NCBI GenBank assembly: GCA_050613775.1
Contig: JBODTK010000016.1
Coordinates: 124,001-188,000, forward strand
Direction of reading: 5' to 3'
Length of the DNA stretch: 64,000 nucleotides
DNA from: Neocallimastix sp. 'constans'
Taxonomy: Eukaryota
In this document: piece by piece, positions 725 to 62,413 of the stretch
Numbering within the stretch: position 1 is the first letter of the stretch
Layout: every line of letters begins with the position of its first letter
Made by a program: the position numbers and the translations under genes
Notes under the pieces: generated by a model
The model's database searches: none
Told to the model about the DNA's origin: nothing
Seen by the model: only the letters and a program-made list of their open reading frames with translations

Positions 725-2138
725 TTAAATTTTTTTACCTCGAAATATATTAAATCTACTATATTCTTTTTGTCTTCTAAGTTTTTCAAGTTTTTCAAGT
801 TTTTCTTGTTTTTCTTGTTTTTCTTGTTCAATTGTTTTCTTTAAATCTTCGAAAAAGTCTTTAGGAAGTATATTTTTGGGGAAAGAATGTGGTGTATTGA
901 AATATTTTTCACCATCTAATTTAAAACTACCATTTTGTATAATGTCCGTAATAATTTTGCTCCAGTGAACATTGGTTCTTAAAGTTTCCATATTACCAAT
1001 AATAATTAAGGAATTTCGAGCTCGAGTAAGAGAAACATTAACTCGATTAGCATTTCTTAAGAATCCAATTTTCCCATCAGATTGAACTGTTGATAAAATA
1101 ACAATATCATTTTCTTGTCCTTGGTAACTATCGACAGTATTGACTTGAATATTTTTAAAAATATTAGCTTTCTTTAAAAGTTCTTTAAATCTTTTATCAC
1201 TTTCTAAATCAATCATTTCATCATAAAATGAAAATATATTGTTACTGCTTCGATATTTAGTCATTTCTAAAAAATCATTTAACGTATCTTCATAATATTC
1301 TCTTAATTTCTTTTTAATTAGTGATACTTGAGCACTATAAATTGTAATGATAGAAATTCTTTTAGAGAAACAAATATTTGAATAGCAATGTAAAAGTTCA
1401 TTAATACAATTAATAACAAGTTGAGCTTCTTTTTCATTACTTATGGATGAATTATTATTTTGAGTAGTATTCCCTTTTACATTATAAAATACAAGAGGTC
1501 CAAATTTTTTATTATCTTTACACCATTCGCCTATCCATTCTTTGGATTTAACATTTTCACCATCGGAAATTTTATTATCATAAAATGCTTTATTGGCAAG
1601 TCTACTAATATCTGGATGCATACGATATTGAACATTTAAGAGAGTGAGTTCACTCTTAGATCTTTTATAAATACGTTCAAATAAACTTCTTCCATAATTA
1701 CATTTTTGTAATTTATCAGATTTAACGGTTGGTGGAAGTTGTTTAGGATCACCAATTAAAACAACTTGATGAATATTATAAGTGAAAGGAATTAAGGTAG
1801 TTAATTCAATTTTTCATTGAAAGATCTTAATTCCTCCTTACATTCTATAAGAAATAATGGTTCTATTACCTTTATATATGTAGAAATACATTTTCAATAT
1901 AAAATTATATTTTTAATTATATGTATTAGTTTATTTGAATACTAATTTTATTATATATATAGATAATTACATCATCGTAATCCTGCATAGAATCATAAGT
2001 ATCTTTTAGAATAGGAAAACTTTTTCTCCTTACGTCCGCATATGGATCTTTAGTTAATTTCCAATTATATTGACTTTGTGAACAAGCAAAATAGAAATCT
2101 TTGGAATATTTTTTATCTTTATTTTGTGAACTTAACAT
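725..2138 (-). pseudogene. Sen1-like SF1B helicase, copy 1, with an internal deletion and premature stop
   Basis: Exon 1 (2138-1971) and the start of exon 2 (1869) match copy 2. At ~1804-1808 the sequence jumps from 'NEKLN' straight into the region coding 'ELTTLIP', which removes Walker A and DEACQ and creates an in-frame TAA. The C-terminal half (QYRMHP, TVDSYQGQE, RVNVSLTRAR) is retained, with STVR changed to STVQ. Confidence 0.88.
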
Positions 2139-2292
2139 TTGCTTTTACTAAAATATTTTAATTTATAAAACTTTAAAAAAAAAAAAAAGGATAATTTTTT
2201 ATCTTTTATATAAATATTTAATAAAAAAGGCAGAAGTATATGATTGGCACTGAAGCTATGATTGATTCTTTACCAGAAAGTGTCTAAAAATC

Positions 2293-2323
<31 letters not shown>

Positions 2324-3227
2324 TAAATATATTTATTAAAATATTTAATAATTATTTGACCAATAATATATTATATTATATAATATTATATTCAAATATC
2401 AAATTTTAATATAAATTCTTAATGGACATTAAAAATTTTAATTTTAAAAAAAAGTTAAGTTTAAGGTCCATAAATTTTAATCTATATATTTTTTAAATTT
2501 AAATTAATAATATATTATATATTATAATTAAAAATAATAATTATCGATAAGAAAATAACTAGGGTAGGGGTTAATAATAAAATATAATAATTTAATGTAT
2601 GAAATTAATATATAGAAATTGTATTCTTGTGAAAATACGATTATGATTATTAATTTATTAATAATTTAAGTTAATAAAGAAATTATAAATATAATAAAAA
2701 TATATTAATAATTTAGAACTTTGTTCTATAATAATAATAATAATAATAAAATACAAGTAAACTTTTGTTTATTTAGAAGAAGAAAATTAAACAAAAGAAA
2801 AAAAAGAGGAAATTTAATAATAAAATATTAATATTAATAAATAATTTATATAAAACTAACAAATATAAGTAATAATAAAATGTTTATTAATTATTTGTAT
2901 TGTTTATAAAATTATTTTATTTTTATTTGTAGTTAACATTAAATATATTAAAAACTATTATTTATATTTAAAGGGTAAATATAAATAATAAAGGTTACTT
3001 TACAAGTACTTTAACGAAGTAATAAAGTGGTCTCGTTTGTATAAAATTTTCTTTATACTAGAGTGTTTGGAAAGAAATTTATCAATTATATTAAATAAAA
3101 AAAAATTCAAATAATATAAATATAAAGTAATATAGATAATAAAAATTAAATATGAACAAAAAAATATATTATAATCTATAAAATATATATATAAATATAT
3201 TTAATCGAAAAACTTTTTTTTACTTAA

Positions 3228-3393
<166 letters not shown>

Positions 3394-3545
3394 GAACAAA
3401 GTAATTATTAATATATTTTTAATATATTTATAATTTCTTAATTAACTTAAATTATTAATAAAATTATAATCATAATCATATTTTCACAATAATACAATTT
3501 GTATACATTAATTTCATTTTTTTTTTTTTTTTATTTTTTTTATTT

Positions 3546-3637
3546 CCGGTGTGTACCGCCCTATGCCCCCCTCAAGGCATGGGAATATTAAGGTAGTCAC
3601 AACACTTCGTGTGCTATAGCACAGGCGGATATATAGT
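3546..3637 (+). mobile_element. GC-rich structured island, possible Helitron 3' terminus
   Basis: Palindrome TGTGC-TATA-GCACA (3610-3623) followed ~10 nt later by ATAG|T, resembling the Helitron hairpin plus CTAG|T end. A second hairpin is CCTATGCC/GGCATGGG. Confidence 0.35.
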
Positions 3638-4139
3638 CATTAATTTCATAAAATGTTATATTTTATTATTAAATTACTTATTTTCTTATCAATGTCCATT
3701 AATGTTATAATTAAGGTTTTTAAATAGTATATATTTTTATTATATAAAATTTTGTTATGAATAAAACATAGGAAAAAAGGAAAAATAAAAATTATACAAT
3801 AATTTTAAAAGAAAAAAAATAGAACTTTTTCTCTTTATCTTTTATTTTATATCTTCAAATTTTTTTATTATTATTTTTTAATTTTTTATTTTTTTTTAAT
3901 TTTTTTTTTTTTTTTAATTTTTTTTTTTTTTTTAATTTTTTATTTTTTTTTAATTTTTTATTTTTTTTTAATTTTTTATTTTTTTTTAATTTTTTACTTT
4001 TAAAACTATTATTTGTTATTGTTATATTTAAAAAGGTATAAAATAAACTTTTTTTTTTCAAAATAGTTAAAATAATTTATAAAATAGATATAAATAAATA
4101 AATATATATATATATTATTGCTATTTTTACATTGCTTGA

Positions 4140-4291
<152 letters not shown>

Positions 4292-4522
4292 GTTTTAATA
4301 AAGTATATATATACATTATTAATTTATTTTTTGCAAAAAATTTCATTTTATTTTATTTTTTTATTTTTTTTTTTTCAAATTATTTATAAAGATATTAAAT
4401 TAAATTAATATTAAAATATATTTAAAAATTTAAAAATTATTTATTCTCATTTTGGAAAAGATTGAATTAATTTGATAAATTTCATCAATTTCTAATATTT
4501 TTTTTAAGAAAAAATATAAATA

Positions 4523-7317
4523 TTAATATAAATATAAATTTAAAAAAGATTTGTAATTAGTTAATGTGATATTTATACATTTTATATAATATACTAAATA
4601 AAAAAGAGAGATTAAATTAAATTTTTTACCTTGAAACATATCAAATGTACTATATTCTTTTTGCATTATAAGTTTTTTATGTTTTTCAAGTTTTTCTTGT
4701 TTTTCTTGTTTTTCTTGTTCAATTGTTTTCTTTAAATCTTCAAAAAAGTCTTTAGGAAGTATATTTTTGGGGAAAGAATGTGGTGTATTGAAATATTGTT
4801 CACCATCTAATTTAAAACTACCATTTAGTAAAATATCCTTAATAATTTTGTTCCAGTGACCATTGGTACATAAAGTTTTCACATTACCAATAATAATTAA
4901 AGAATTTCGAGCTCGGGTAAGAGAAACATTAACTCGATTAGCATTTCTTAAGAATCCAATTTTCCCATCAGATCGAACTGTTGATAAAATAACAATATCA
5001 TTTTCTTGTCCTTGGTAACTATCGACAGTATTGACTTGAATATTTTTAAAGATATTAGCTTTCTTTAAAAGTTCTTTAAATCTTCTATCACTTTCTAAAT
5101 CAATCATTTCATCATAAAATGAAAATATATTGTTACTGCTTCGATATTTAGTCATTTCTAAAAAATCATTTAACGTATCTTCATAATATTCTCTTAATTT
5201 CTTTTTAATTAGTGATACTTGAGCATTATAAAATGTAATGATAGAAATTCTTTTAGAGAAACAAATATTTGAATAGCTATGTAAGAGTTCGTTAATACAA
5301 TTAATAACAAGTTGAGCTTCTTCTTCATTACTTATGGATGAATTATTATTTTGAGTAGTATTCCCTTTTACATCATAAAATACAAGAGGTCCAAATTTTT
5401 TATTATTTTTACACCATTCACCTATCCATTCTTTGGATTTAACATTTTCACCATCGAAAATTTTATTATCATAAAATGCTTTATTGGCAAGTCTACTAAT
5501 ATCTGGATGCATACGATATTGAACATTTAAGAGAGTGAGTTCACTCTTAGATCTTTTATAAATACGTTCAAATAAACTTCTTCCATAATTACATTTTTGT
5601 AATTTACCAGATTTAACGGTTGGTGGAAGTTGTTTAGGATCACCAATTAAAACAATTTGAGGAATATTATAAGTGAAAGGAATTAAGGTAGTTAATTCAG
5701 TAGCTTGACATGCTTCATCAATAATTAAAAAACCAAATCCTAAATTTTCGATACATCTGTTACCACTACTACATAATGTACAAACAATGACATTGGCTTC
5801 CCTTAATTCCTTACTTAATTCATGCTCATCTAAATCATTATCAGCACAATATCTAAATGATTTAATATATTCTTTATCTTTTTCTTCTATATAAAAAAAG
5901 ATATATATGTATATAATAAAAAATTTGTTTATATTATTTATATATAATTAATAAAATTTAAATTAATCATCCAAATTTTATTATTTTATATTTGTTATCA
6001 TTATTTATTATTATCATTATTATTATTTAATATTTCATTGATTTACCTTTTTTTAATCTTCTAATAATTTCATCACAAGCATAATTACTTGGAGCACAGA
6101 CAAGAATTTTTGATTCATTTCCAGTAAGAATATTATATTGTAATTCTCGATCAATAATCGCAACAAGTACTGAAGTTTTACCTGTACCAGGTGGACCATG
6201 AATTAATGAAATCTTTCTATCTTTAACTTTAGTTAAGGCAGATGCTTGAGATTCATTTAATTTGTATTCATTAATCACATTTTGTGTAATATTGGTATAT
6301 TCTGGTCCAAAATATTTTATGCTTCTATTACTTATATTGCTAATTTTCCCACTGGTAATAATTTTACAAATAGGTAAGGAAGAATTTTCAACAAAATAAT
6401 TTAAGGTTCTATATTCTTTTATAATTGCTCCGAAGGACATGATATGAATACAAATCCATTGTCCTCTTTCTCTAATAATTTCATATTGAAGTTTCTCAAT
6501 TTTTTCGCGAGGCATACGGGTCATACAAAATGTATTTATTTTATCATCAAGAGATAAGATATTTCCTAAATTTAATGATCTCATTTTTTTAATAAAATCA
6601 TCATCATCATCATTATTTTCAGAATCAGAACTATCTAAAGAAAAAGTAGATTCATCACTGTTATTGTCTTTTACTATACTATCAGATTTTCTGTAAAACA
6701 TAAGGGTATCAAAGTATATAGTTTTGAAATCATCACTAATTTTTGCTAAATAAAGTAAATCATTCCTTTTTATTTCACCAGAAGATCTTGGTTCTTTATA
6801 TTTTCTTTTTTTATTATGGATAAAATCCATTCCATCATATCCAGATAAAAAATAGTAAGGCATAACAATTTTTAAATAATAGGTAGGATTATCAAATAGA
6901 AGCAATGAATCATTATTACTTTTAAAAGCTTTTATATCAACTTTAACAGCAAGCGCTTTGAAGTTTATTTTTTTCTCATTCAATTTTTCATTGAAAGATC
7001 TTAATTCTTCTTTACATTCTATATGAAATAATGGTTCTATTACCTTTATATATGTAAAAATACATTTTCAATATAAAATTATAATTTTAATTATATTTAT
7101 ATATATTAATTTATTTAATACTAATTTTATTATATATATAGATAATTACATCATCGTAATCCTGCATAGAATCATAAGTATCTTTTAGAATAGGAAAACT
7201 TTTTCTCCTTACGTCCGAATATGGATCTTTAGTTAATTTCCAATTATATGGACTTTGTGAGCAAGCAAAATAGAAATCTTTGGAATCTTTTTTATTTTTA
7301 TCTTGTGAACTTAACAT
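4523..7317 (-). CDS. Sen1/senataxin-like SF1B (Upf1-family) helicase, copy 2, intact, 3 exons, ~842 aa
   Basis: Exons 7317-7150, 7043-6047 and 5886-4523 with GT-AG introns splice in frame (2529 nt). Motifs: HGPPGTGKT, LVCAPSNYACDE, IIDEACQATEL, GDPKQLPPTV, SLFER, QYRMHP, TVDSYQGQE, NRVNVSLTRAR. Confidence 0.92.
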
Positions 7318-7366
7318 TTTTTATTTTATTAATTATTAATAATGTGGTAAAAAGTAGAGAATATTG

Positions 7367-7397
<31 letters not shown>

Positions 7398-8029
7398 TAT
7401 TTAATTTTTATAAAAAGTTAATATATTACTATAATAATTTATTTAGCAAAAAAAAAAAAAAAATGAATAATTTATTTTCTTTTTATATAAATAAAAATAA
7501 TAGAATATTATATATATTTAAATTTTAAATTTAATATTTTTTTTTTTTAATTATAAAAATATTTAATAATTATTTTTATATAATAATATAATATATTATA
7601 TTATATTATATTATATTATTATATATTTTATTATATTATATTATATTATATTCAAATAACAAAATTTAATATAAACTACGTGTTGGACATTAATAATATA
7701 AAATAATTATTATACTATAATTTAATAATTAAAAATTCTGTATATCTCATATGTCTATTTTTTTTTTTTTTTTTAAATTTAAATAAATATACAATTAAAT
7801 ATATTATTAAAAAATATAGTTTAATTTTATTATAAATAAAAAAAAAAAAAAAAAAAAAAATACAAGAATCAAATAATAAAATAATAAAGCAATTAAAATA
7901 ATAAAAGTTAAATAAGAATAAAAAATGCATTATATCAATAAAGAAAAGTGTATAAAAATATATATTTTCGATAACAGTTCATGCCAAGTTTGAATGTAGA
8001 ATATTCATAATATCAAAAATTATAAATTC

Positions 8030-8360
8030 CTTTCGTTTAACAACTAGTGTAGCATATTTACTGATTTCAAAGGTCATTTCATTTTTTGATACCCCATATC
8101 GTAAGTATTATTTAAAAGTTAACAAAAGAGAATTTCGTATAGACCAATAAGGCAATATCGTCAGCAAATAAGTCACTTCATCATTTTTTTTTCTTTCAAT
8201 AATTATAGCATTTCTTAGATTTATCAAAATATGTCATTGATAAATATTTTAATTAAAATAAGTACTAAAAGACATCCTTGGTGAACACCACTATGTATTG
8301 GTGTATTAGAAATTCTTTTTATAAATTATCTTAAAATTTATATGAACTTTCGAAGTAAGG
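8030..8360 (-). mobile_element. Degenerate non-LTR retrotransposon (LINE) reverse transcriptase fragment
   Basis: Minus-strand translation gives PIHSGVHQGCLL..IFINDIF (GVxQGxPLS motif, 8289-8275), LFADDIALL (8168-8157) and WG..EMTFEISKYATLVV. Stops and frameshifts are present. Confidence 0.85.
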
Positions 8361-10155
8361 AATAAATTTTAATAATTATTAAGAAATTTCTAGATATAAT
8401 AAATATTAATGTTACTGGATAAATTCTGTAATTTTTTTTTTTTTAATCGAAATTATTGCAAACTTTAATTTTATTTATTTATTTATTTATTTATTTATTA
8501 ATTACAGGAATATTTTTTTTTAAAATAAATACAGAATAAATAAAAAAAATAAATATTATTTGTCCAATTTGAACATAATAATTATAAATAGTAATGTGAA
8601 ATAAAAGTAATATTCAAAATAAAGTTAGCCTGTCTTATTTTCATTTTCAACGTTAATGTTCCTAGTTAGTTTGTGTTTATTCCATTGGAATAGCAATTCT
8701 TATTGAATACAGACCATTTGTTACAACCATCAGAATCAGTACTTGATTCTATATTATTCATACAGTGTTTACATTACTGTTTAATATCTAGCAATATTTG
8801 GTAATAACAAAAAATTTTCCATAAAGAATTTCAAATCGAGAATTACTATTTTTTCTATATCAAAAAATTTCTTTGATATTTCCTATTTTTTTTTTTTTGT
8901 ATAAATGATAAGAAAATAACTAATTTAATAATAAAATATAATATTTTAATGTATGAAAAATTAATGTATAATTCTCATGAAATATAGTTATAATTTTATT
9001 AATAATTTAAGTTAATTAAGAAGTTATAAATAAATTAATATATTTATAATAGTAAATATATTAAATTGTAAAAATAATTTAAAACTCTGTTCTATAATAA
9101 TAATAATAAAATACAAGTAAATTTTTGTTTATGAAGAGAAGTAAACAAAAGAAAAGAAAGAGGAAATTTAATAATGAAATATTAATATTAATAAATAATA
9201 TATATAAAACTAACTAGTATAATTAATAATGCATGTATATTAGTTATTAGTGTTGTTTATAATATAAAATTATTTTATTTTTATTTGTAGTTTACGTTAA
9301 ATATATTAAAAACTATTATTTATATTTAAAGTAAATATTAATAATAAAGGTTACTTTACAAGTACTTTAACGAAGTAATAAAGTGGTCTCGCTTGCCTGT
9401 ATAAATTTTTCTTTAATAAAGTAGAGTATTTGGAGAGAAATTATCAATATCTATAATTATATTAAATTATAATAATAATAACAAATGTCAAAATTTGTAA
9501 ATATGGAAATTTATAAATATGTATAAAATATATTTTAGATTTATAAGAACCATATTTTTTAGATAAATATATTATTTTAAGAAAGAATATATTCACAATA
9601 TATTATTTTATTTAAAAAAAAAAAAAAAAACAATAATAATAAATATAAAATTATAAAATTAATAAATTAAATAAAATTGATAATGTCCAGTAATAATTAT
9701 TATAATTTAGGTTTTTAAATAGTAAATATTTTATTATATAAATAAATTAAAAAAAAAATGTATAAAACATATTTTAGATTTGCAAGAACCAAATCTTTTA
9801 ATATAAATATATTAATTTAAACAATACATTCACAATATATTATTATTATATTTTATAAAAAAAAAAATAAATTAAAATTAATATTGTCCATTAATAATTA
9901 TTATAATTAAGGTTTTTAAAGATTATTTATTTTTAAAATAAATATTTGTAATAAATAAATAAATAAATAATAAAAAAAAAAGAGGAAAAATAAAATATAC
10001 AATTAATTAATAATTTTATTTGAAAAAATAGATCTTTTATTTTTTATTTTTCATTTTTCATTTTTTTTATTTTTTTTTTTTATTTTTTATTTTTTTTTAT
10101 TTTTTATTTTTTTTTATTTTTTTATTTTTTTATTTTTTTATATACCATTTTTTTC

Positions 10156-12238
10156 ACTCTTGTCCTTGGAAATTATCGACAGTATTGACTTGAATATTAA
10201 AAATATTAGCTTTCTTTAAAAGTTCATAAATGTTGAATCATTACCTAAATTAATCATTTCATCATAAAATGAAAATATCTTATTTCTGCTTCAATATTTG
10301 ATCATTTCTAAAAAATCATTTAACGTATCATTATAATTTTTTCTTAATTTCTCTTTAATTAATGATATTTGAGCATTAAAATATGTAATGATAGAAATTC
10401 TTTTAGAGAAACAAATATTTGAATAGCTATGTAAAAGTTCATTAATACAATTAATAACAAGTTGAGCTTCTTTTTCATTACTTATGGATGAATTATTATT
10501 TTGAGTAGTATTCCCTTTTACATCATAAAATACAAGAGGTCCAAAAATTTTATTATCTTTATACCATTCACCTATTCATTCATCGGATTTAACATTTTCA
10601 CCATTGGAAATTTTATTATCATAAAATGCTTTATTGGCAAGTCTACTAACATCAGGATGCATACGATATTGAATATTTAAAAGAGTGAGTTTACTCTAAG
10701 ATCTTTTATAAATACGTTAAAATAAACTTCTACCATAATTACATTGATTTAATTTATCAAATTTAACGATTGGTGGAAGTTATTTAGAATCACCAATTAA
10801 AACAACTTGAGGAATAATATAAATGAAAGGAATTAAAATAATTAATTCAGTAGCTTGACATGCTTCATCAATAATTAAAAAACCAAATCCTATATTTTTG
10901 ATACATCTGTTACCACTACTACATAATGTACAATGACATTGACTTCCTTTAATTCCATACTTAATTCATGCTCATCTAAATCATTATCAGCACAATATCT
11001 AAATGATTTAATTATCTTTTTCTCTATATAATAAAAGTAATATATAACAAAAAATATGTATAAATTATCTATATATAATTAATAATATTTATATTAATAA
11101 TTCAACTTTTATTATTTTGTATTTATTATTATTTTTATTTTTATTATTATCAATATTATTATTTATTTATTATTTTTATTTTGAATTTATTATTATTATT
11201 ATTTATTATTTTATTAATTTACCTTTTTTTATCCTCTAATAATTTTATCACAAGCATAATTATTTGGAGCACAGACAAGAATTTTTGAATCATTTCCAGT
11301 AAGATTATTAAAGTGTAATTCTCGATCAATAATCGCAACAAGTACTGAAGTTTTACTTGTACCAGGTAGACCATGAATTAATGATATCACTCTACCTTTA
11401 ACTTTACATAAAGCAGATGCTTGAGATTTATTTAATTTATATAGCTTTTAATCACACTTTTTGTAATATTGGTATATTCTGGTCCAATATTACAAAAAGT
11501 GTGATTAATGATACTATCAATTTTTCCACTGATAAAAATTTTACAAATAGGTAAGGAAGAATTTTCAACTAAATAATTTAAGGTTCTATATTCTTTTAAA
11601 ATTGCTCTGAAGGACATAAGATGAATACAAATCCATTATCCTCTTTCTTTAATAATTTCATATTGAAGTCTATCAATTTTTTCAGAGGATATACAGGTCA
11701 TGCAAATTATATTTAATTTATCATCAGGAGATATAGTGTTTCATAAATTTAATGATCTCATTTTTTTAATAAAATCATCATCAACATCATCATCATCAAA
11801 ATCAGAACTATCTAAAAAAAATTAGATTCATCGTTTTTTCACTTAAAAGCTTTTATATCAACATTAACAGCATGAGCTTTGAAATTTATGTTTTTCTCAT
11901 TCAATTTTTTATTGAAAGATTTTAATTATTCATTACATTTTATATGAAATAATGTTTCTATTGCTAATGTATATTTATAAATATATTTTCAATATAAAAT
12001 TTTATTTTTAATTATAATTGTATATATGAGTTTATTTAATACTAATTTTATTAGATATATAGATGATTACATTATCGTACTCCTGCATAGAATGATAAGT
12101 ATCTTTTATAATAGAAAAAAAAATTCCCTTATATCAGAATATGAATTTGAAGTTAATTTCTAACTATAAGGACTTTGTGAACATGAAAAATAGAAATCTT
12201 TGAAGTCTTTTTTATCTTTATTTTTAGAACTTAAACAT
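10156..12238 (-). pseudogene. Sen1-like helicase, copy 3, decayed and 3'-truncated
   Basis: Collinear with copies 2 and 4. There is a frameshift just after the ATG, an internal deletion near 11830, Walker A mutated to HGLPGTSKT and multiple stops. It ends at VDNFQGQE* (~10156), so motif VI is missing. Confidence 0.9.
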
Positions 12239-13079
12239 TTTTTTATTAACTATTAATAATAATGTAAAAAGTAGTGAATATATATATATATATAATTTTT
12301 ATTTTTATTTTTATTTTTATTTTTTTTAAACTTTTATAAAAAGTTAATATGTAATTATTAATTTAATTATATAATACTTTCAAAAAAAAAATTGGATAAT
12401 TTATTTTTTTTATATATACACAATATGTATATATATATTTTTAAAAAAATTTTAAAGCTTATTTTTTTTTTTTTTTTATATTATAATATTATATTCAAAT
12501 ATCAAACTTTAATATAAACAATAATTTAATAATACAAATTTCTGGACTTTATGTTTTTGTTTTTTTGTTTTGTTTTTGTTTTTTCGTTTTTTTGGTATTT
12601 TTTTTTTTTTTAAATTTAAAAAAAAAAATATTATTAAAAATATAATAAAAAATAAAAAAAAAATAAAGAAAATAAAATATTCCATTTTAACAATAAAGAA
12701 ATTAATTTTGATAATAAAAATTAAATAGGAATAAAAAATTTATTTTATCAATAAAATAAAAATAAATATATATGTATTCGGTAGACGGTTCATGGTTTTA
12801 ATATCATTGTATAGTTTATTCAGAGTACTTTCAGAAAATGTATTAGATTTTTGAATTTAAAGTTGCGTCAGATTTTTAATTTATAATTTTAGTATTGTTT
12901 GTAATTGAATTTTTTATTAATTACTTTTTGTCATGAGCAACATGACATCGAGAAATAATTAATAAAATATATTGAACAATATTATTATTCTGAAGCGTTA
13001 TTTTGTAAAGTGATGTCAAATGATTTAAAAATAAATTGCAATTACCTTATTTAACAATCCTAATTCCGGAAGATTCCAT

Positions 13080-13498
13080 ACCAGTAAATAATTTAAATAA
13101 TCTTTAAGGGCAAAAGGAAAATCTTCTTCTCTTTTTGCCTTTACTTTATTTAATATATTCATCTATTGTGACATATCATTTTCAGCCACTTCATATTCTC
13201 CTCTTAAATAACTTATAATTGCAAAAGAGTATTCATTCCAATTATATCTTCATGAATTTTTTTATTTATGGTATTTTTGTTAATATAACGGACTTTTGTA
13301 ATTTTTTTTTTTTTTAAATTCTTTTAGATCATATGCAGCTGTTTTCTTTTCATACTTTTGTTTTTTATATACTACATCTGTAGTTAAATATTCCTCCAAA
13401 TCATTTTCTCTGAGGATGTCCTTTAAACTATCATATCATATTTTAAAAAATTTTCCACACAATATGACTTCCTTTTTGAAAGTAATTAAGTGGTTCAT
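13080..13498 (-). mobile_element. Degenerate Ty1/copia-type Gag fragment
   Basis: Translation ..LCGKFFKI*YDSLKDILRENDLEEYL..KVRYINKNTINKKIHEDII..AIISYLRGEYE fits the copia Gag N-terminal pattern (LxGxNYxxWxxxMxxxL...L..Y). Stops and frameshifts are present. Confidence 0.55.
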
Positions 13499-14205
13499 TC
13501 GATAAATTTTTAATTTAAAATTAATATTATAATGACTATAATAGATTCAATAATTATATAGTTATTCTACAATTTTAAATTTTAATATTTCGTTAAAATT
13601 TCATTAAAACTTTAAAATGCCAATGTTCGCATAAGAAAAAATAAATAGATTATAAATAACGTAATAATTAATAATAGAAAACAAATTAATTTAGGATTAT
13701 ACGTTTTATAAAAAAAAAAAAGATTTTTATTAACAATAAAAAATAATATAAAATTACATTTAAATTTATTTATTACTAAACTATAAACTAAACTATCTTT
13801 ATATTATCTAATTTTATTATTTTGTTTATTATTATATTTGAATTTTTTTTTTATTATTACAGGATTCTATTCTTGCTTTTACACCTATTTATACTTTTAG
13901 CAAAGTTAAAGTTGGTGGCATTTTAAGAATATTTTAGAATAAAATAAAATATTTATATTGAATTAAAATTAATAATATAGTTTTAATTATTATTTTAATG
14001 AATAATTAATTCATATTATTATATTATTTTATGTGAATCCATACACATGATATCTAATAATTTACATTTAATTATTGATTAATATAAATAATGTTAATTT
14101 ACATTTTAATTTCAGTTTTTTAAATATATATTTATTATTTATATTTTAATAAGATATATGATAATTTCATTTATTTTTTAAATAGTGCAAAAAAATTTTA
14201 GTTTA

Positions 14206-14339
14206 TATTTATAATTATTTATTATAAGGTTTTTAAAAATTCATTTTAAAATCAAAACATATTTAATAATTTTAAAAATTTGATATTTCCATCTTCGGAA
14301 AAGATTGAATTAATTTGATTAAATTCATTAATATCTATT

Positions 14340-14373
<34 letters not shown>

Positions 14374-14670
14374 AAGTATTAAATATAAATTTAAAAAACA
14401 TTTATAATTAGTAAATATGATATATTAAAATTAATTTATTAATAATACATATTAATATAAAAATATGGAACTCTAAAAAAATAAAAAAAAAAAATTAATT
14501 GAATTTTTTACCTTTTAATACTTTAATTATATCAAGTTATTTATAATTATTTATTATAAGGTTTTTAAAAATTCATTTTAAAATCAAAACATATTTAATA
14601 ATTTTAAAAATTTGATATTTTCATCTTCGGAAAAGATTGAATTAATTTGATTAAATTCATTAATATCTAT

Positions 14671-14702
<32 letters not shown>

Positions 14703-14868
14703 TAAGTATTAAATATAAATTTAAAAAACATTTATAATTAGTAAATATGATATATTAAAATTAATTTATTAATAATACATATTAATATAAAAATATGGAA
14801 CTCTAAAAAAATAAAAAAAAAAAAATTAATTGAATTTTTTACCTTTTAATACTTTAATTATATCAAGT
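14206..14868. repeat. ~331-bp tandem duplication of the last codons and 3' flank of helicase copy 4
   Basis: 14206-14537 and 14538-14868 are near-identical. Confidence 0.9.
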
Positions 14869-17701
14869 CTATGTTTTTCTTTTTGACTTTCATATTTTTC
14901 TTGTCTTTCCGGTTTTTCTTCATCAATTGTTTTCTTTAAATTTTCGAAAAAGTCTTTAGGAAGAATGTTTTTGGGGAAATAATGTGGTGTATTGAAAAAT
15001 TTTTTACCTTCAAATATAAAATTATCATTTGATTTCATATCCTTAATAATTTTTAACCAATGGTCATTAGTACATAAAGTTCTCATATTACCAATAATAA
15101 TTAAGGAATTTCGAGCTCGAGTAAGAGAAACATTAACTCGATTAGCATTTCTTAAGAATCCAATTTTCCCATCAGATCGAACTGTTGATAAAATAACAAT
15201 ATCATTTTCTTGTCCTTGGTAACTATCGACAGTATTGACTTGAATATTTTCAAAAATATTAGCTTTCTTTAAAAGTTCTTTAAATCTTGAATCACTTTCT
15301 AAATCAATTATTTCATCATAAAATGAAAATATTTTGTTATTAAATTTATTTTTAGATATTTCTAAAAAATCATTTAACGTATCTTCATAATACTCTCTTA
15401 ATTTCTTTTTAATTAATGATACTTGAGCATTATAAAATGTAATGATAGAAATTCTTTTAGAGAAACAAATATTTGAATAGCTATGTAAGAGTTCATTAAT
15501 ACAATTAATAACAAGTTGAGCTTCTTCTTCATTACTTATGGATGAATTATTATTTTGAGAAGTATTCCCTTTTACATTATAAAATACAAGAGGTCCAAAA
15601 TTTTTATTATCTTTACACCATTCGCCTATCCATTCTTTGGATTTAACATTTTCACCATCGGAAATTTTATTTTTATAGAATGCTTTATTGGCAAGTCTAC
15701 TAATATCTGGATGCATACGATATTGAACATTTAAGAGAGTGAGTTCACTCTTAGATCTTTTATAAATACGTTCAAATAAACTTCTTCCATAATTACATTG
15801 TTTTAATTTACCAGATTTAACGGTTGGTGGAAGTTGTTTAGGATCACCAATTAAAACAATTTGAGGAATATTATACTTGAAAGGAATTAACGTAGTTAAT
15901 TCAGTAGCTTGACATGCTTCATCAATAATTAAAAGACTAAATCCTAAATTTTCTATTAATTTGTTACCACTACTACATAATGTACAAACAATGACATTGG
16001 CTTCATTTAATTTTTTTTTTAATTCATGATCATCTAAATCATTATCAACACAATATCTATTTGATTTATTATATTCTATATCTTTTTCTTCTATATAAAA
16101 TATATAATATAAAATACGTTCGTATTATTTATATATAATTAATAAAATTTATTATTTTATATATATTATTATTATGATTATTTATTATTATAACTTATCA
16201 TTTTATTAATTTACCTTTTTTAAATTTGACATTCATTTCATCACTAGCACGATATCTGAATGATTTAATATATTCTTTATCTTTTTCTTCTATATAAAAA
16301 AAGATATATATGTATATAATAAATAATTTGTTTATATTATTTATATATAATTAATAAAATTTAAATTAATCATCCAAATTTTATTATTTTATATTTGTTA
16401 TCATTATTTATTATTATCATTATTATTATTTAATATTTCATTGATTTACCTTTTTTTAATCTTCTAATAATTTCATCACAAGCATAATTACTTGGAGCAC
16501 AGACAAGAATTTTTGATTCATTTCCAGTAAGAATATTATATTGTAATTCTCGATCAATAATCGCAACAAGTACTGAAGTTTTACCTGTACCAGGTGGACC
16601 ATGAATTAATGAAATCGCTCTACCTTTAACTTTACATAAAGCACATGCTTGAGATTCATTTAATTTATAGTCATTAATCACATTTTTTGTTATATTTTTA
16701 TATTCTGGTCCATAATATATTATGCTTTTATTGATTGCAGGATCAATTTTTCCACTGGTAATAATTTTACAAATAGGTAAGGAAGAATTTTCAACTAAAT
16801 AATTTAAAATTCTATATTCTTTTATAATTGCTCCGAATGACATGATATGAATACAAATCCATTGTCCTCTTTCTCTAATAATTTCATATTGAAGTCTATC
16901 AATTTTTTCAGAGGATATACAGGTCATGCAAATTATATTTAATTTATCATCAGGAGATATGGTGTTTCCTAAGTTTAATGATCTCATTTTTTTAATAAAA
17001 TCATCATCATCATCATCATCATCAAAATCAGAACTATCTAAAGAAAAAGTAGATTCATCATAGTCGTTTACGATACTATCGGATTTTCTGTAAAACATAA
17101 GGGTATCAAAGTATATAGTTTTGAAATCATCACTTATTTTTGCTAAATAAAGTAAATCATTCCATTTTATTTCACCAGAAGATCTTTGTTCTTTATGTTT
17201 CGTTCCACTTTGGATAAAATCCATTCCATCATATCCAGATAAAAAATAGTAAGGCATAGCAATCTTTAAATAACATGAAGTATTTTCAAATAGATGAAAT
17301 GAATCATTACTATTCTTAAAAGCTTTTACATCAACATTAACGGCAACATCTTTGAAATTTATTTTTCTCTCATTTAATTTTTCATTGAAAGATCTTAATT
17401 CTTCTTTACATTCTATATGAAATAATGGGTCTATTACCTATATGTATGTATAAATATATTTTAAAATAATTTATTTTAATTAATTATAGTTTAGTATTTT
17501 ATTAATTTACTTAATATTAATTTTATTAAATAAAAAGATATTTACTTTATAGTATTCCTGCATAGAATTGTAAGTATCTTTCAGTATAGGAAATTTCTTT
17601 TTCCTTATATCAGAATATGGATCTGAAGTTAATTCCCATTTATAAGGACTTTGTACACAAGAAAAATAAAAGTCATTTTCTTCATTTCGGGAACTAACCA
17701 T
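14826..17701 (-). CDS. Sen1-like SF1B helicase, copy 4, intact, 4 exons, ~827 aa
   Basis: Exons 17701-17546, 17437-16450, 16289-16215 and 16090-14826 splice in frame (2484 nt). All SF1 motifs are intact. Confidence 0.9.
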
Positions 17702-18164
17702 TATTTTTAAAAATTATTAATAAATATTAAAAATATTAAAATATTAATTATTATTTTGTATAATAAGAAATTATAAAAAAAAAAGATTAGATAATTATTT
17801 TTCTTTTTATATTTTTTTTCTCTTAAAAGTATTTAATTAAATTTTTACGGAAAATGTTTATTTTTTATTGAGGTTTAAATATTATTTATGAATATATTAA
17901 TAATTATTTATATAAATTAAATCAATATATTATATTAAATAAAAAAAAAAAAAAAAAAAAAAAAAAAATAGAAAAGAAAAAACCAATAGTTTTTTTTTTT
18001 TTTTTTTATTTTAAATTAAATTATTTAAAAATATTTAAAAATAAAAATTATTTAATATATTTTCAATAATTTTTATGTCTTTTTTTAGATTATAATTAAT
18101 TATCAAATCAAATATTATATTTATATATTAATTTTTTTATATTTTTTTTGATAATTTTTTCTTT

Positions 18165-18545
18165 ACACTGATATTAACGATATTAACGACTGGAGAACAA
18201 TAGTACCTCCAGTTTATCTCTTAAATGTATTAGAGACTCATTAGATTCTATTCCATACCGTTTCGGTCTTGACACGGACCTCTATCTAAGCAAGGATAAT
18301 ATGAAAGACATTCCCAATATGCCGCATTATACTACGCGTTTCTTTTAAATGATCTACTAAACCGTCATTGAGAAAGAAATAACAACATTAATCTTCTAAT
18401 AAAGCAAGTACTATCTACATTAGCAATAATATAGTCTAGCAATAGGAATACGAATACCAACTTCACTTATAGAGAAAAGCACATTAAGAGGATGAAAATG
18501 GTCAAATATAAATTCAGAAGGTAGTAGGAGTTCATTTAGAAACCT
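18165..18545 (-). mobile_element. Dispersed repeat family, copy A (probable retroposon 3' end)
   Basis: Alignable to the reverse complement of 47395-47722 and 57303-57415. All three share a terminus followed by an A-rich run. Confidence 0.7.
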
Positions 18546-18779
18546 TAACTGTATTATTATTCTCTAATATTAGCACATCAGGATAAAACTGGAAAGACAT
18601 ATGAATATTTTAAAAAAAATTTTTTTTACTATTTAATAATAAAATAAATTAAATTATTCGAATTTTTATTAAAACAATAAATTAAAGATATAGAAGGATA
18701 ATTCTTAAATTTATCCATATTAATATTTCTCCATTTATTTATAAATTAACAACCAAAACCAAAACGCATAATAATATCG

Positions 18780-19510
18780 ATAATTTAATATAAATTATAT
18801 AATTACATTTATCCAATCAAATTACTCAATATTATATAAAAAAGATTTTAAGATTAGATTCGAAAAGTAACCTGTAATAAGATTTTAAAATTTATTTTAT
18901 AATATTAATAAAGGAATGGAATTGGGTTAGGGGTTAGGTTGATGGAACATTTATATGAATTGCAAATTAATTTTGGTTAATTTATTAAAATTGGAGATAG
19001 ATGATTACCATTCAAAATTAATATATCTTTATTTTTAGGTTAAGTCATTCGATAGTGGCTGATCCATACTTTATACATTGATTCTACTAGAGTTGCTATT
19101 TCTGAAGAACCTGATAGTTGAAATGTATCAATTACAGGAATTTGCAAAGTTATTAATTGTAATACCTTTTAATGAAATATTTCAAAAAATGAATAAGTTG
19201 AAGATATTATATGGCAAGATAATAATTTAGAAAAGTACGCTATGACATTTATGCATATACTTACGGAATCATTAAAAAACATATAAAAATGAATCTTTAA
19301 TAATTCCTAATGAGGTTAAAAAAGTTACAAAAGAATTTATTTTAAAGGGTGATTTAGTTGGTGAATTTATTATCGAAAAGTTTGTAGAATCTGTAGGCTT
19401 AGAAGTTAATATTTATATAGTATAGAGATAGTATAAACAATGGAATAAATTCTATATTAATGAAAATAAAAACTGTGAATTTTTTGAATTATTTAAATTA
19501 GTGTTAGAAA
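18780..19510 (+). pseudogene. Decayed D5-like (SF3) primase-helicase fragment, virus-like
   Basis: Frameshifted translation: MNCKLILVNLLKLEIDDYHSKL (cf. NGKSxLxxLLxxxLGDY), TRVAISEEPD (Walker B region), LIVIPFNEIF (cf. RRxxVIPF), YAMTFMHILTE, YKNESLIIPNEVKKVTKEFILKGDLVGEFI..YKQW. No introns. The extent upstream of ~18940 is tentative. Confidence 0.75.
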
Positions 19511-19537
19511 AGTTTAATATTATGTTGAAAATAATAT

Positions 19538-19630
19538 TATTAAAAATTACGAATTAATTGTAGGTAGTTATTAAAAATACGAATTAATTGTAGATAGTTA
19601 TTAAAAATTACGAATTAATTGTAGATAGTA
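19538..19630. repeat. ~30-bp tandem repeat x3
   Basis: TATTAAAAATTACGAATTAATTGTAG(G/A)TAGT repeated three times at the end of the D5 relic. Confidence 0.85.
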
Positions 19631-19739
19631 AATTATACTAATATGATTAATTTAAAATTTCTATTAATTATACAAAATATTAATTTTTGGTATAATAAGA
19701 TTATATGTTCTAATTATATAATTTAATTTAAAATATTAT

Positions 19740-19939
19740 TAATAAAATAAAATATTTTTAATTATTTTTTAAAATTAAATTTAAATAATTTTATATAAAA
19801 TTTTTGTTAAACTAGAAAATAAACATAAATTATTTTTTTAATAAAATAAAATATTTTTAATTATTTTTTAAAATTAAATTTAAATAAATTTATATAAAAT
19901 TTTTGTTAAACTAGAAAATAAACATAAATTATTTTTTTA
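19740..19939. repeat. ~100-bp tandem duplication
   Basis: Two near-identical units containing TTTTGTTAAACTAGAAAATAAACATAAATT. Confidence 0.85.
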
Positions 19940-20879
19940 ACTAGGAAATATAAATTAATAGCTTTTATAATTTTTATAATATCTAATAAATGAAGACTGT
20001 TACCATTAAAGAAAATATAAACTAATATAAATAATTTCAACCATTTATTATTATTTGCTTTTAAAATAATTCATTAATAAATGAAAAATATAATAATTTT
20101 ACTCTTTAATATTATAAAAGATATTTATTATATAAAAAAAATTTCTATTTTCTATAGTAGATTATTTTAATATTTTTTTTAACTGAAAACAATAATAAAT
20201 ATTATTATTTTTTATATTTTTTATATTTCCTGGAAAATATTAAAATATCATTAATAGAACTTTTTTTATTAACAATAATATTAAATAAATCATCTAATGA
20301 GATTTGCTTTTTAGATATCTAACTTTAACATTAGCAATATATAAATATTTTATAGTTAAATTTAGAGTTATGAACTATTAAGACATCTCTTTATAGAGTG
20401 AAGCATTTCTCCATGTTGCATTTCGCCAATTGAAAATTATTAAATGAATGAATATAATATAAATAAATAAATTAGAAAATTACTAATATTGATGTACTTA
20501 TTTTTTTAAAATATATTTTTATAATTAAATATTTTTTTATAAATAATTATTTTATTACTATTATATAAAATATTAAAATATATCTTTATAATTAAATATA
20601 TTTTTATAATTCAATATTATGGATAATATTTTATTACTATTTTACAAAAATTATAAATAATTATATTATTATTTTACATAAATTATAAATAATTATTTTA
20701 TTATTATTTTACAAAAATTATAAATAATTATTTTATTACTATTTTACAAAATATTTAATTAAAATATATTATTTGTTAAAATAAAATTAAAATAATATTT
20801 ATTATTATTACTAACTAAATATTATAAAAAAAGTTTTAAAAAAACATTTTTTGAATTTTTGTACATATATTAATTTATT

Positions 20880-21420
20880 ATATCAATACGCCACTTGATG
20901 AAATATTTATATCAATACGCCGCTTGATGAAATGCAACTCTCCCCTTTTTATTTAACCAATTCCTAATCTACCACCTTTAGCTCTACCTCAATAGGTTGT
21001 CTAGTTACAGAATTTATATTAAACAATATTTTTATAAAACATTTTTTCTTTAACTTGATGTTGTAAAGCATTATAATAACAAATATCAATCATAGATTCA
21101 ATCATTATTTCATTATTGTATAATAATAAATCATCATTTTCTAATTTATTTAATAACTCTTCATAATTAATAATATTGATAAATCCGAATTAAATCTAAT
21201 GCGAGAATTAGTTGGTTCTTTAGTAATAAATTTTATAAGCATTTCTAATAAATAACCTATAGTCTTTCCAGAAAAAAAAACATGAAGATTTATAGTAATA
21301 TCAGTTATAACTCCTGATCTGTAAATGGTAATTGACATTCAGGAATAGTATCGTCAGTCACACCTTTTTGAGAATATATGTTTGAAAATTTATCACTTAT
21401 TTGAGGTTTATAAATATGAT
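20880..21420 (-). pseudogene. Decayed multisubunit RNA polymerase second-largest subunit (RPB2/beta-type) C-terminal fragment, virus-like
   Basis: Ordered motifs across frameshifts: KPQISDKFSNIYSQKGV (cf. PQIGDKFASRHGQKG), IPECQLPFT, GVITDITINLHVFFSGKTIGYLLEML (cf. GIxPDxIINPHxxPSRMTIxxLxE), YYNALQHQVKEK (cf. YYQRLxHMVxDK), TRQPIE-GRAKGGRLGIG (cf. TRQPxEGRxxxGGLRxGEM), HQAA. No introns. Confidence 0.85.
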
Positions 21421-21679
21421 AAGTTTTTAACAAATAGTAATTAGTTTATAATAAAGAATTTAAAATATAAATATCAAATGATTTGATTCTCTTAGGTTTT
21501 CTAAAATTTAGAATTTTCCTGAAAATTTATGCTGAAATTATTAATTTTGTTTTTTTCTTTTAATAAAAAATATTATTTTTAAAATTTAATTTATAAAAAT
21601 TATTATTTAAAAAATTAAATAAAGATAAAGTTTTTTTGTTTTTATAATTTTATTTAATATCCTAAAATGGTTGATTAAA

Positions 21680-21992
<313 letters not shown>

Positions 21993-22302
21993 TTAAAAGT
22001 TATAATAGTTGCAAATCAACTATCAACTATTCAAAAATTTCCAATAAAATATTAAAAATTAAATTTAAATATATATATATTTTTATTTAAAAAAATTATT
22101 AGATATTTTTTTATTATTATTATATATTTTTTATACAATATTCTTTATTTGCAAACAGTAATGAATAAATATTTTTTTTTTTGTTTTGCTGTAGATAATT
22201 ATAATTATTAAAAAATTATATTTGAATTTAATATATAATTATTAAAAAGTTATATTTAAATTTAATACATAGCAAGTTATTCAAAGAAAAATAAATAATA
22301 AA

Positions 22303-24044
22303 ATGCATTTATTTTGTTGTTTTAATATTAATATAGGAAAAAAGAATAAAGAGAAAAAATTTTTAAATAAAGATAATTCAAATATCTTAACTAATCAATC
22401 TATTTCAAATGAAATTATTAAAAATACATATTCAGTGGAAAGAAATGAGAGGAAAAATGTTTCATTAATATCAACAAATAAAACTAATTCTATTGATAAT
22501 AATAATAATAAAATTGAAGATTTAAATACTTCTATTAATACTTCGGTTATAGCTGTCACAGCAAATTCCAATACTTCAAATTCTAATAATAATGAATATG
22601 ATATGAACCATACTAATGTTAGTCATTTGGAAAAAAGCTATCTTCAAGATAAATGTAACTCCTTAAAATTTTGTTCTCCTACAACAGGTTCATCTTTTCA
22701 TTCAAATAATCAGAGTATGATTGATTTTCAATCAGCAGCTTCTTTAAACTCTATCACAGAATCATTTTTTACAACGGCTTCTGAATCTTCGTTAGCATTA
22801 GATATAACAAAAGTAACAACAACAACAACAACAACTATTAATAATAATGATAAAAAATACTTCAATAATCATTCAGATTCTTTTCTTTCAACTACCAATA
22901 ATTATCAGTCATCGCTTTCAAACACTAATACTTCTATTAACGATACCAACTTTACTGATACTAAAACTAAATCTATTAATAAAAATGCACAGTATTCCAC
23001 GGATATTGATTTACAAACTATGACTGCTTCAAAATTAGACAATATTGCTGAAAGAGCTTTAAATCCAAATTTAATTAATTATACCCTTGATTCCGTAATA
23101 AAGAATAGAATTAAAGTATATACTAGAGTAAGGCCATCTACTGGCATTAATGAATATATCATATTAGGTTATTTGGATAATGTTACATTAAGAGAAGCTT
23201 ATGAAGTTTACATGGATTTAGAATATCGTAAAGAATGGGATGATTTAAAACAGCAAATTAATATTTTTGAGAGAAAAAATAAAAAGAAAAAGGATGGAAC
23301 ATCTCCTTCCTCTTCCTCATTGGGTAAAAATTATTTAAAAGATTTTGAAATTCATTGGGAAATAAAGTTACCATGGCCATTTTCAAATCGTGAGTATGTT
23401 TTTGAAAGAAATACATATGAACATAAGGTAAAATGACTAATAAATAATAATTATAATATAATGATAATTATTATTATCGTTTGTTATTATCCAATATATA
23501 ATATACTAATATTTTTATTATTAAAATTATATTTAAATAATTATATACCTATTTTTTTTTAAAGTATAATGATATGATTTTCTTAATTGCAGATAATAGT
23601 TCACTAGATAATGATGAAGAAGTTACACAAGAAGTAAAAAATTTTGGAACTATTCGTATTACCGAATATGAACAAACAACAGTATTTTATTCTGATCGTG
23701 AAGATGGAAAATGCAATGTTTATATGGAGGTATATATTTTTTTTCATATACAATATTAATAATTAATAATAATAATGATTTTTCATTTCCTTTTCTGTGT
23801 ATATATATATATATATATATACTTTTTTTGATAGTATTACGATGATCCAAAAGGAAATATACCATTAATGTTAAAAAATTGGGTTGTTGGAAAAGCAGCA
23901 CCTAATTTTATTATGAATATTGAGAAAGCATGTAAAGAATATAAAGCATTTGAAAAAAGATTGGCAAATAATAAGCATGTGAAAGAATTAAACGAGATTC
24001 TTGGGAAATCTATTCAAGAAGCATTTGATGATTTCGAATTATGA
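22303..24044 (+). CDS. START-domain lipid transfer protein (PCTP/StARD2-StARD7-like) with a long low-complexity N-terminus
   Basis: Exons 22303-23427, 23565-23729 and 23835-24044. Motifs: YMDLEYRKEWD, WEIKLPWPFSNREYV, YYDDPKGNIP..NWVVGKAAPNF..ACKEY. Confidence 0.88.
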
Positions 24045-47394: not shown

Positions 47395-47722
47395 CCATGA
47401 TCTATGTTTAGCTATTTTGTTCTGGATCAATCCCGTGACTACCTTCTGAATTTATGTGGGGCAATTTTTATCCTCCCCATAAATGAAATTATTGCTAGAC
47501 TATATAATTGCTAGTACAAAGAACACTTGATTTGTTAGAGGATTAGTGTAGTTATTTCATGCTCGATGATGGTTCAAAAGATCACTGAAAAGAAGCCGTA
47601 TAAAACTGTGTTATCGAGAATATCTTTCATATTAGCCTTGCTTAAAAAATCCAATGAGAGTCTGATACATTAAAGGGTACTGAAGGCCCTTTTGTCCTCC
47701 CCTCTCATTAATCCAAGTCTGT
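47395..47722 (+). mobile_element. Dispersed repeat family, copy B
   Basis: Homologous to 18165-18545 (inverted) and 57303-57415; followed by an A-run. Confidence 0.7.
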
Positions 47723-57302: not shown

Positions 57303-57415
57303 ACCTAGTCCGTGTCGATGCCGATACAATATGACAAAGAAGCTAATGAGAGTCTGTTACATTTAAAGGAGAGACTGGAGGTCCTGTTATCCTCCCCTTT
57401 CGTTAATCCCAGTTT
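57303..57415 (+). mobile_element. Dispersed repeat family, copy C (short, truncated)
   Basis: AATGAGAGTCTG..TCCTCCCCT..TTAATCC.AGT is shared with 47650-47720; followed by an A-run. Confidence 0.7.
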
Positions 57416-62381: not shown

Positions 62382-62413
62382 ATTTGATATATTGTTTTAC
62401 TTTTTATTATTAT

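What the first reader, a model, noticed from the sequence alone, without database searches (positions are those of the whole stretch)
18780..21420. Cryptic endogenous giant-virus relic: D5 primase-helicase and RPB2-type RNA polymerase pseudogenes side by side
Seen in sequence: two intronless, frameshifted, convergent relics about 1.4 kb apart. One carries D5/SF3-helicase motifs and the other carries five ordered RPB2 C-terminal motifs; short tandem duplications separate them. Established knowledge: a D5-like primase-helicase and a multisubunit RNA polymerase are both core Nucleocytoviricota genes, and D5 is not a normal nuclear fungal gene. Inference: this is a fossil insertion of a large DNA virus of this host lineage. 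It sits at the junction between the accessory and housekeeping compartments and is not recognisable from the ORF track.
Basis: partly seen in the sequence, partly recalled or inferred. Interest (0 to 1): 0.88.

Follow-up and report, generated by a model that had tools for sequence, protein, structure and literature searches.

The report
Fossil fundsalphavirus fragment in gut fungus
A fungal chromosome carries two broken genes, a viral-type DNA helicase and an RNA polymerase subunit, lying tail to tail, which are most likely a dead copy of a virus-derived element already reported from anaerobic gut fungi in 2020, so this is a further example of a known kind of viral fossil.

Summary
A D5-type SF3 helicase relic (18826-19556, +; 60% identical to Anaeromyces robustus ORX79232, 10 stops, 4 frameshifts, 110 residues lost) faces an RPB2 C-terminal relic (21427-20935, -) across a 1.4-kb AT-rich spacer. 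An intact relative, contig L007, has the same convergent D5-RPB2 pair. The RPB2 relic scores 118 bits against L007, at most 78 against 77 giant-virus RPB2s, and shares L007's unusual CYYxALQHQV motif. The D5 family is multicopy and often intact in Neocallimastix, Piromyces and Anaeromyces. Six members lie on contigs whose lengths equal five 'fundsalphavirus' contigs of Gong et al. 2020 (PMC7017919), which reports RPB2 next to D5. So this is a decayed copy of a published Pithovirus-related endogenous element, from a divergent sublineage. 'Giant' and 'primase' are not supported: the published copies list about ten genes without capsid or A32, and Pfam finds no primase domain in this D5 family. 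Read-level contiguity could not be tested.

The parts
18826..19556 (+). D5-type SF3 helicase pseudogene (helicase half only); 10 stops, 4 frameshifts, 110 residues deleted relative to P0002, Walker A unrecognisable
   Evidence: the family profile match starts at 18805
19557..20934 (.). AT-rich spacer (GC 0.11), 1,378 nt against 505 nt in intact L007; holds short tandem duplications (19537-19629 31 bp x3; 19739-19940 99 bp x2; 20586-20809 35/67-bp arrays; 20878-20933 29 bp x2)
20935..21427 (-). RPB2 (second-largest RNA polymerase subunit) C-terminal pseudogene fragment with five ordered motifs; 4 frameshifts; a weak extension reaches 21505
18117..18525 (-). Flanking dispersed repeat, not shown to belong to the element; other copies at 47438-47644 and 57308-57462; one copy ends in an A-run, so it is possibly the 3' end of a non-LTR retroelement (inference)
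14826..17437 (-). Left host neighbour: last unit of a tandem array of intron-containing SF1 helicase genes (AAA_11/AAA_12)
22273..23436 (+). Right host neighbour: first exon of a gene with a weak START-domain match (E 0.00095, below cut-off), beyond a (TAA)110 run

Best explanation
This is a dead, two-gene remnant (D5-type helicase and RPB2, tail to tail) that most likely comes from a fundsalphavirus-type element, the Nucleocytoviricota-related replicon reported from anaerobic gut fungi, and it likely sits in the nuclear genome of such a fungus. Shown: both relics, their lesions, the same convergent pair intact in L007, and membership of the D5 in the Neocallimastigomycota family. Taken from the literature: the parent carries PolB, RPB1, RPB2, D5, an SF2 helicase, a methyltransferase and UDG in a conserved order. 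Inferred: the parent copied and transcribed itself in the cytoplasm with these enzymes; one copy was captured into the chromosome, probably by non-homologous repair, possibly helped by a retroelement; it then lost everything but these two pieces and drifted towards host AT content. The locus makes no working helicase or polymerase subunit.
For: D5 relic 60% identical to A. robustus P0002, grouped with P0002 and P0001 at 100/100. The family has 13 longer relatives at 40-47% identity, in Neocallimastix, Anaeromyces, Piromyces and unnamed records. Six members lie on contigs of 127,315 (two), 168,386, 246,453, 857,073 and 171,537 bp, the exact lengths of five fundsalphavirus contigs in Fig. S2 of PMC7017919, where RPB2 sits next to D5. 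L007 holds intact D5 (+) and RPB2 (-) 505 nt apart. The RPB2 relic scores 118 bits on L007, at most 77.8 on 77 giant-virus RPB2s and 64.3 on archaeal RpoB; CYYxALQHQV is shared with L007 and a Q at that place occurs in 1 of 77 giant-virus sequences. In PDB the D5 profile hits only ASFV and poxvirus proteins. The top structural neighbour of P0003 is a Nucleocytoviricota C962R-like cluster, TM 0.76. Relic GC is 0.22-0.23 against 0.32-0.33 in L007 genes. 12 of 22 listed runs hold half or more of the stretch's words.
Against: The relic's own sublineage (P0002) is only about 45% identical to the main family, and P0002's contig (130,675 bp) is not among Gong's four A. robustus contigs, so the tie to the named group runs through sister clades. 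No PolB, the gene that defines fundsalphaviruses, was seen at this locus, and I had no fundsalphavirus PolB to search with. In the RPB2 tree the relic's branch is long (2.07), support is SH-aLRT only, no eukaryotic Pol I/II/III sequence was included, and the break points came from the L007 alignment, which favours L007. By language-model features the D5's nearest clusters are mostly phage, as are 7 of the 10 structural rows by commonest taxon (phage or bacterial). Contiguity with host genes rests on this assembly alone.
Confidence: 0.86

Rival explanations
1. The fragment comes from a large (100 kb or more) capsid-forming giant virus such as Mycodnaviridae, unrelated to fundsalphaviruses.
For: Zoosporic fungi carry integrated giant viruses with D5 and PolB (PMC13533422, Results part 1). 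D5 and RPB2 are Nucleocytoviricota core genes (established knowledge).
Against: That paper has 0 occurrences of six anaerobic-gut-fungus terms in its main text and 0 in the readable supplements (6 of 10 files unreadable). No IMG/VR contig matched the D5 family patterns. The closest relatives are the compact fungal elements.
Confidence: 0.04
2. The RPB2 piece is a retrocopy of host RPB2 or RPC2, and the D5 piece arrived separately from a phage, plasmid or Polinton-like element.
For: L007 RPB2 is about as close to cellular polymerases as to anything solved. P0003 matches 275 phage records at E <= 1e-5. The Atlas feature neighbours are mostly phage for D5 and eukaryotic for RPB2.
Against: Relic fragments give no Pol II hit in PDB at E <= 10. 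The relic has CYYNALQHQV where yeast RPB2 has YYQRLRHMV and yeast RPC2 YYQKLKHMV. The 10 best phage rows are 23-26% identical. The same gene pair is intact and convergent in L007, which two independent arrivals would not give.
Confidence: 0.02
3. It is a remnant of a yeast-type linear killer plasmid (virus-like element, VLE).
For: VLEs carry Nucleocytoviricota-derived RNA polymerase, helicase and capping genes and occur outside Dikarya (PMC13348850 passages). Chitin-binding domains sit beside the fundsalphavirus genes.
Against: VLEs use a protein-primed PolB, and I recall no D5 helicase in them (recalled, not tested). Gong's PolB tree places these elements near Pithovirus. L007 RPB2 is an ordinary 884+ residue subunit.
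Confidence: 0.03
4. The stretch is an assembly artefact or contaminant, not chromosomal.
For: Fungal repeats, including L007, are seen mis-binned in an archaeal genome.
Against: The stretch is heavily decayed and its AT content matches the host. 12 runs hold 67-91% of its sampled words: 10 feces-metagenome runs of 2018, perhaps one campaign, and 2 runs of one 2024 sample, perhaps the source.
Confidence: 0.05

Closest known systems
Fundsalphaviruses (Gong, Zhang and Han 2020, PMC7017919): Pithovirus-related endogenous NCLDV elements; 41 PolB copies listed in five Neocallimastigomycota genomes
   Same: Same host group (inferred from homologues); RPB2 adjacent to D5; D5 of the same family, six members of which lie on five of the paper's contigs by length; stops and frameshifts also reported there.
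   Different: This copy keeps only two fragments, shows no PolB, and belongs to a divergent D5 sublineage (P0002/P0001 clade, about 45% to the rest) that I could not tie to a contig in the paper. A PolB-based screen would miss it.
Physcomitrella patens NCLDV-like regions (Maumus et al. 2014, PMC4083422)
   Same: Placed inside fundsalphaviruses by Gong; compact (about 13 kb), repeated, rich in transcription and replication genes, lacking capsid and packaging ATPase.
   Different: Plant host; I did not compare sequences.
Mycodnaviridae (Myers et al. 2026, PMC13533422)
   Same: Nucleocytoviricota sequences integrated in zoosporic fungi, with D5 and PolB.
   Different: Up to 350 kb, defined by major capsid protein, near Imitervirales; not reported from anaerobic gut fungi in the text I could search.
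ASFV C962R and poxvirus D5 primase-helicases
   Same: SF3 helicase with D5_N and C-terminal domain; best solved relatives (E 4e-17 and 4e-14).
   Different: 785-970 aa with an N-terminal primase; the fungal family is 586-722 aa with no primase domain found by Pfam in 13 of 13 members scanned.

Membership tests
Fundsalphavirus (Gong 2020) | PolB grouping in the fundsalphavirus clade near Pithovirus | not testable with these tools
   No PolB seen at the locus; no fundsalphavirus PolB sequence was obtained and no host genome is held.
Fundsalphavirus (Gong 2020) | D5 belonging to the fundsalphavirus D5 family | tested here: met
   The relic groups with P0002 in a family whose members lie on five of the paper's contigs; it is a divergent sister sublineage.
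Fundsalphavirus (Gong 2020) | RPB2 adjacent to D5 and of the element's type | tested here: met
   Same pair in L007; the relic is closest to L007 RPB2 among 79 subjects; adjacency in Fig. S2 (strand not visible in the text form of the figure).
Fundsalphavirus (Gong 2020) | Other shared genes (RPB1 halves, SF2 helicase, methyltransferase, RPB5, UDG) nearby | tested here: inconclusive
   None among the ORFs of 110 aa or more in the window or in Pfam scans of 18150-18622; decayed relics could not be sought without reference sequences.
Nucleocytoviricota (virion-forming) | Major capsid protein and A32 packaging ATPase | not testable with these tools
   No host genome held. In the literature no Neocallimastigomycota label appears among the fungal hits of Figs S9 and S10.
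Nucleocytoviricota (virion-forming) | D5 with N-terminal AEP primase | tested here: not met
   No primase-family Pfam hit in 13 long members at E <= 0.05; a very divergent domain is not excluded.
Host RNA polymerase II/III retrocopy | High identity to fungal RPB2/RPC2 and their YYQxLxHMV motif | tested here: not met
Yeast-type linear VLE | Protein-primed PolB and terminal inverted repeats | not testable with these tools
   Only a two-gene remnant is left; no specific inverted repeat brackets it.

The most novel reading that the evidence does not exclude
The parent is not a giant virus but a compact (tens of kb), capsid-less, Pithovirus-related replicon that is still alive in anaerobic gut fungi: a self-transcribing cytoplasmic or insertion-prone element with about ten genes, a primase-less D5 and chitin-binding cargo, a second capsid-less offshoot of Nucleocytoviricota alongside the yeast killer plasmids. 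This relic would mark an older, separate sublineage. Support: conserved gene order within contigs of 18-44 kb and no capsid or A32 labels; the 7 N. constans D5 records I compared are 93-99.5% identical, and one sequence stands under three accessions; the moss relatives are about 13 kb without capsid. Maumus 2014 raised and doubted plasmid and transposon readings for the moss copies. An unrecognisably divergent capsid is not excluded.
Probability: 0.3. Interest if true: 0.72.

Novelty: new member of a known kind. Interest (0 to 1): 0.32.

Why it matters
The locus itself is an ordinary dead copy of a published element. Its use is as a marker: PolB-based screens miss such copies, and the D5 tree shows at least three sublineages across Neocallimastix, Piromyces and Anaeromyces, which points to repeated or long-standing invasion of these rumen and gut fungi. 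The open question it touches is what fundsalphaviruses are. Only 1 paper in the library holds the name, yet intact, near-identical copies are numerous in culturable fungi, so whether they form particles or persist as capsid-less replicons can be tested directly.

Tried and rejected
No whole genome is held for the window, so intact copies and capsid genes could not be sought in it. Direct family scans of the broken frames were weak: Pfam and PHROGs, best E 0.043 'DNA primase'. A word-indexed search with a 46-aa RPB2 piece found nothing. IMG/VR scans with the relic, P0002, the D5 alignment and the L007 RPB2 C-terminal half found no member of the family; the single hit L001 (E 3e-4) falls inside a DNA ligase/polymerase-like ORF and was rejected as chance. 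The metagenome scan gave 5 loci of about 2 kb, too short for gene context. In genome G001, which holds L007, searches for RPB1 and PolB found only large-contig, archaeal-looking genes, and reading 27 other small or medium contigs (25 whole, 2 to 20 kb) by ORF showed retroelement-like and archaeal genes but no further piece of the element (judged by eye). The motif-like stretch near 20420 was tested as the missing RPB2 tail with a profile of 17 tails and gave no hit at E <= 10. The first D5 tree with the distant outgroup P0016 was unstable at the root and was rebuilt without it on 15 rows. Paper searches with no or irrelevant result: 0; 0. Earlier-finding look-ups gave nothing for this genome or sequence.

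Full report
Setting. The window is 17% GC, with intron-broken genes. No whole genome is held. The host is inferred to be an anaerobic gut fungus (Neocallimastigomycota), because the named close relatives of the relic come from Neocallimastix, Piromyces or Anaeromyces, apart from fungal-like contigs filed under Methanosphaera, and because the stretch occurs in feces metagenomes.

The D5 relic is real. One 85-residue frame found a single relative among 1.84 billion representatives (P0001, 60%, E 2.4e-23). P0001 led to P0002, an SF3 helicase of Anaeromyces robustus. P0002 matches 18826-19473 at E 4e-29, while 30 locally shuffled windows reach at most 27.3 bits against 82. A frameshift-aware alignment gives 60% identity over 215 residues, 10 stops, 4 frameshifts and 110 missing residues; P0001 carries the match to 19556. 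The Walker A of intact relatives cannot be recognised in the relic. The family profile finds this one locus in the window.

The D5 family. A search of longer proteins returned 14 hits: 13 at 40-47% identity and one distant. Their clusters hold up to 68 members, many from different contigs of one Neocallimastix genome. The 7 N. constans records I compared are 93-99.5% identical. All 13 carry D5_N or a weak match to it, and none has a primase-family Pfam hit. Solved relatives are ASFV C962R and poxvirus D5 only. The Atlas's best structural neighbour is a Nucleocytoviricota C962R-like cluster (TM 0.76), but its feature neighbours are mostly phage clusters. Phage matches number 275 records, with the 10 best rows at 23-26% identity. 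In a tree of 15 rows without outgroup, the relic, P0002 and P0001 form one clade at 100/100, apart from the other 12.

The RPB2 relic is real and of the same element. The genome scan returned one locus, L007, a 5.1-kb contig filed in an archaeal genome bin, together with retroelement-like contigs that look fungal (my reading). L007 holds an intact D5 on + and an intact RPB2 of at least 884 residues on -, tail to tail and 505 nt apart. This is the layout of the window. L007 RPB2 finds the window relic at E 2e-11 and 8e-7, and at 67-71% DNA identity over 140 and 201 nt. Against 79 subjects (L007, one archaeal RpoB, and 77 usable of 80 giant-virus RPB2s), the relic scores 118 bits on L007, 77.8 on the best virus and 64.3 on the archaeon. 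Relic and L007 share CYYxALQHQV; 49 of 77 viral sequences have M at the Q position, 1 has Q and 27 lack the pattern. Yeast RPB2, yeast and human RPC2 and archaeal subunits have HMV. A quick tree of 31 rows joins relic and L007 at SH-aLRT 98. Caveats: the relic's branch is long, no eukaryotic sequence was in the tree, the viral set was picked by likeness to L007, and the break points came from the L007 alignment.

It is a known element. Gong, Zhang and Han 2020 (PMC7017919) describe 'fundsalphaviruses', Pithovirus-related endogenous elements in 14 fungi of six phyla. I read main-text parts 1-2 of 3 and supplement parts 1-3 and 5-7 of 7, with figures as label text only, so tree shapes and strands were not seen. 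They list 26 PolB copies in N. californiae, 6 in P. finnis, 4 in A. robustus, 4 in Piromyces E2 and 1 in Pecoramyces. Fig. S2 shows a recurring order: chitin-binding domain, methyltransferase, UDG, RPB2, D5, (DnaJ), PolB, RPB1-C, SF2 helicase, RPB1-N. Six proteins of my D5 family lie on contigs of 127,315 (P0065, P0067), 168,386 (P0066), 246,453 (P0069), 857,073 (P0051) and 171,537 bp (P0036). These are the lengths of MCFH01000089 (two copies in the figure), MCFH01000083, MCFH01000069, MCFH01000019 and MCOG01000331.

How it most likely arose. The parent carried its own DNA polymerase, helicase, multi-subunit RNA polymerase and a methyltransferase, which suits cytoplasmic replication (argued for the moss relatives in PMC4083422, Discussion). 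One copy entered the chromosome between a tandem SF1 helicase array and START- and EAP30-domain genes. The route is inferred: non-homologous capture, perhaps aided by a retroelement. A dispersed repeat with an A-rich end lies 300 nt to the left, and Gong noted retrotransposons near some copies. Decay followed: most of both genes was lost, the spacer grew from about 0.5 to 1.4 kb with slippage duplications, and GC fell from about 0.33 to 0.22. No function is expected.

What is not shown. 'Giant' is not shown. Published copies fit in contigs of 18-44 kb, no capsid or A32 is listed in their rows, and no Neocallimastigomycota label appears among the fungal hits of the capsid and A32 trees. The moss relatives are about 13 kb and lack both. 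Mycodnaviridae (PMC13533422; abstract, Results part 1 of 2 and term searches) are defined by capsid and do not mention these fungi (6 of 10 supplements unreadable, and the strain table may be among them). From PMC13348850 I saw passages only. Contiguity was not verified with reads. 12 of 22 listed runs hold 67-91% of the stretch's words, from what may be only two campaigns, one perhaps the source.

Verdict. Observation confirmed and interpretation supported in substance. It is a new, decayed member of a kind described in 2020, from a divergent sublineage. Interest 0.32. The bolder reading, that these elements are live, compact and capsid-less, is open (probability 0.3) and testable, but concerns the family more than this locus.

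Noticed in passing
window 725-17437 (-): Tandem array of four SF1 helicase (AAA_11/AAA_12) gene copies, 87-96% identical at DNA level.
   Followed up: partly
window 18117-18525, 47438-47644, 57308-57462: Dispersed repeat, 71-84% identical between copies; the copy at 57308 ends in an A-run after a short conserved reading frame, like the 3' end of a non-LTR retroelement (inference; no Pfam hit).
   Followed up: partly
window 20371-20460 (-): Short higher-GC island in the spacer with an internal 15-nt duplication, reading IGEMQHGEM in one frame; not matched by an RPB2-tail profile; unexplained.
   Followed up: partly
P0003/P0017 cluster; L002: One D5 subfamily is near-identical across N. californiae, N. 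lanati and N. 'constans' and sits on long contigs (0.69 and 1.5 Mb) with few records per genome; it may be a domesticated or fixed copy.
   Followed up: no
L005:77-2174: A D5-family fragment (+) lies head to head and slightly overlapping with a host-type GRIP-domain coiled-coil gene (-).
   Followed up: no
G001 contigs C49, C44, C47, C5, C12, C18, C22, C23, C39 (L007, L017, L020, L060, L063, L067, L070, L071, L080): An archaeal genome bin holds several fungal-looking repeat contigs (retroelements, a subtilisin-like gene, the D5-RPB2 pair); the D5 is filed under Methanosphaera in public records.
   Followed up: partly
PMC7017919 Fig. S2: Chitin-binding domains recur at the edges of the gut-fungal copies, and a GH18 'zymocin alpha' chitinase domain sits beside the Zancudomyces copy, recalling killer-plasmid cargo.
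   Followed up: no
window 61029-62396 (-): Intronless 455-aa ORF of higher GC (0.33) that reads like a bacterial MATE-type transporter (recalled, not scanned); a possible horizontal transfer.
   Followed up: no
window 21676-22007: (TAA)110 microsatellite between the RPB2 relic and the next host gene.
   Followed up: no
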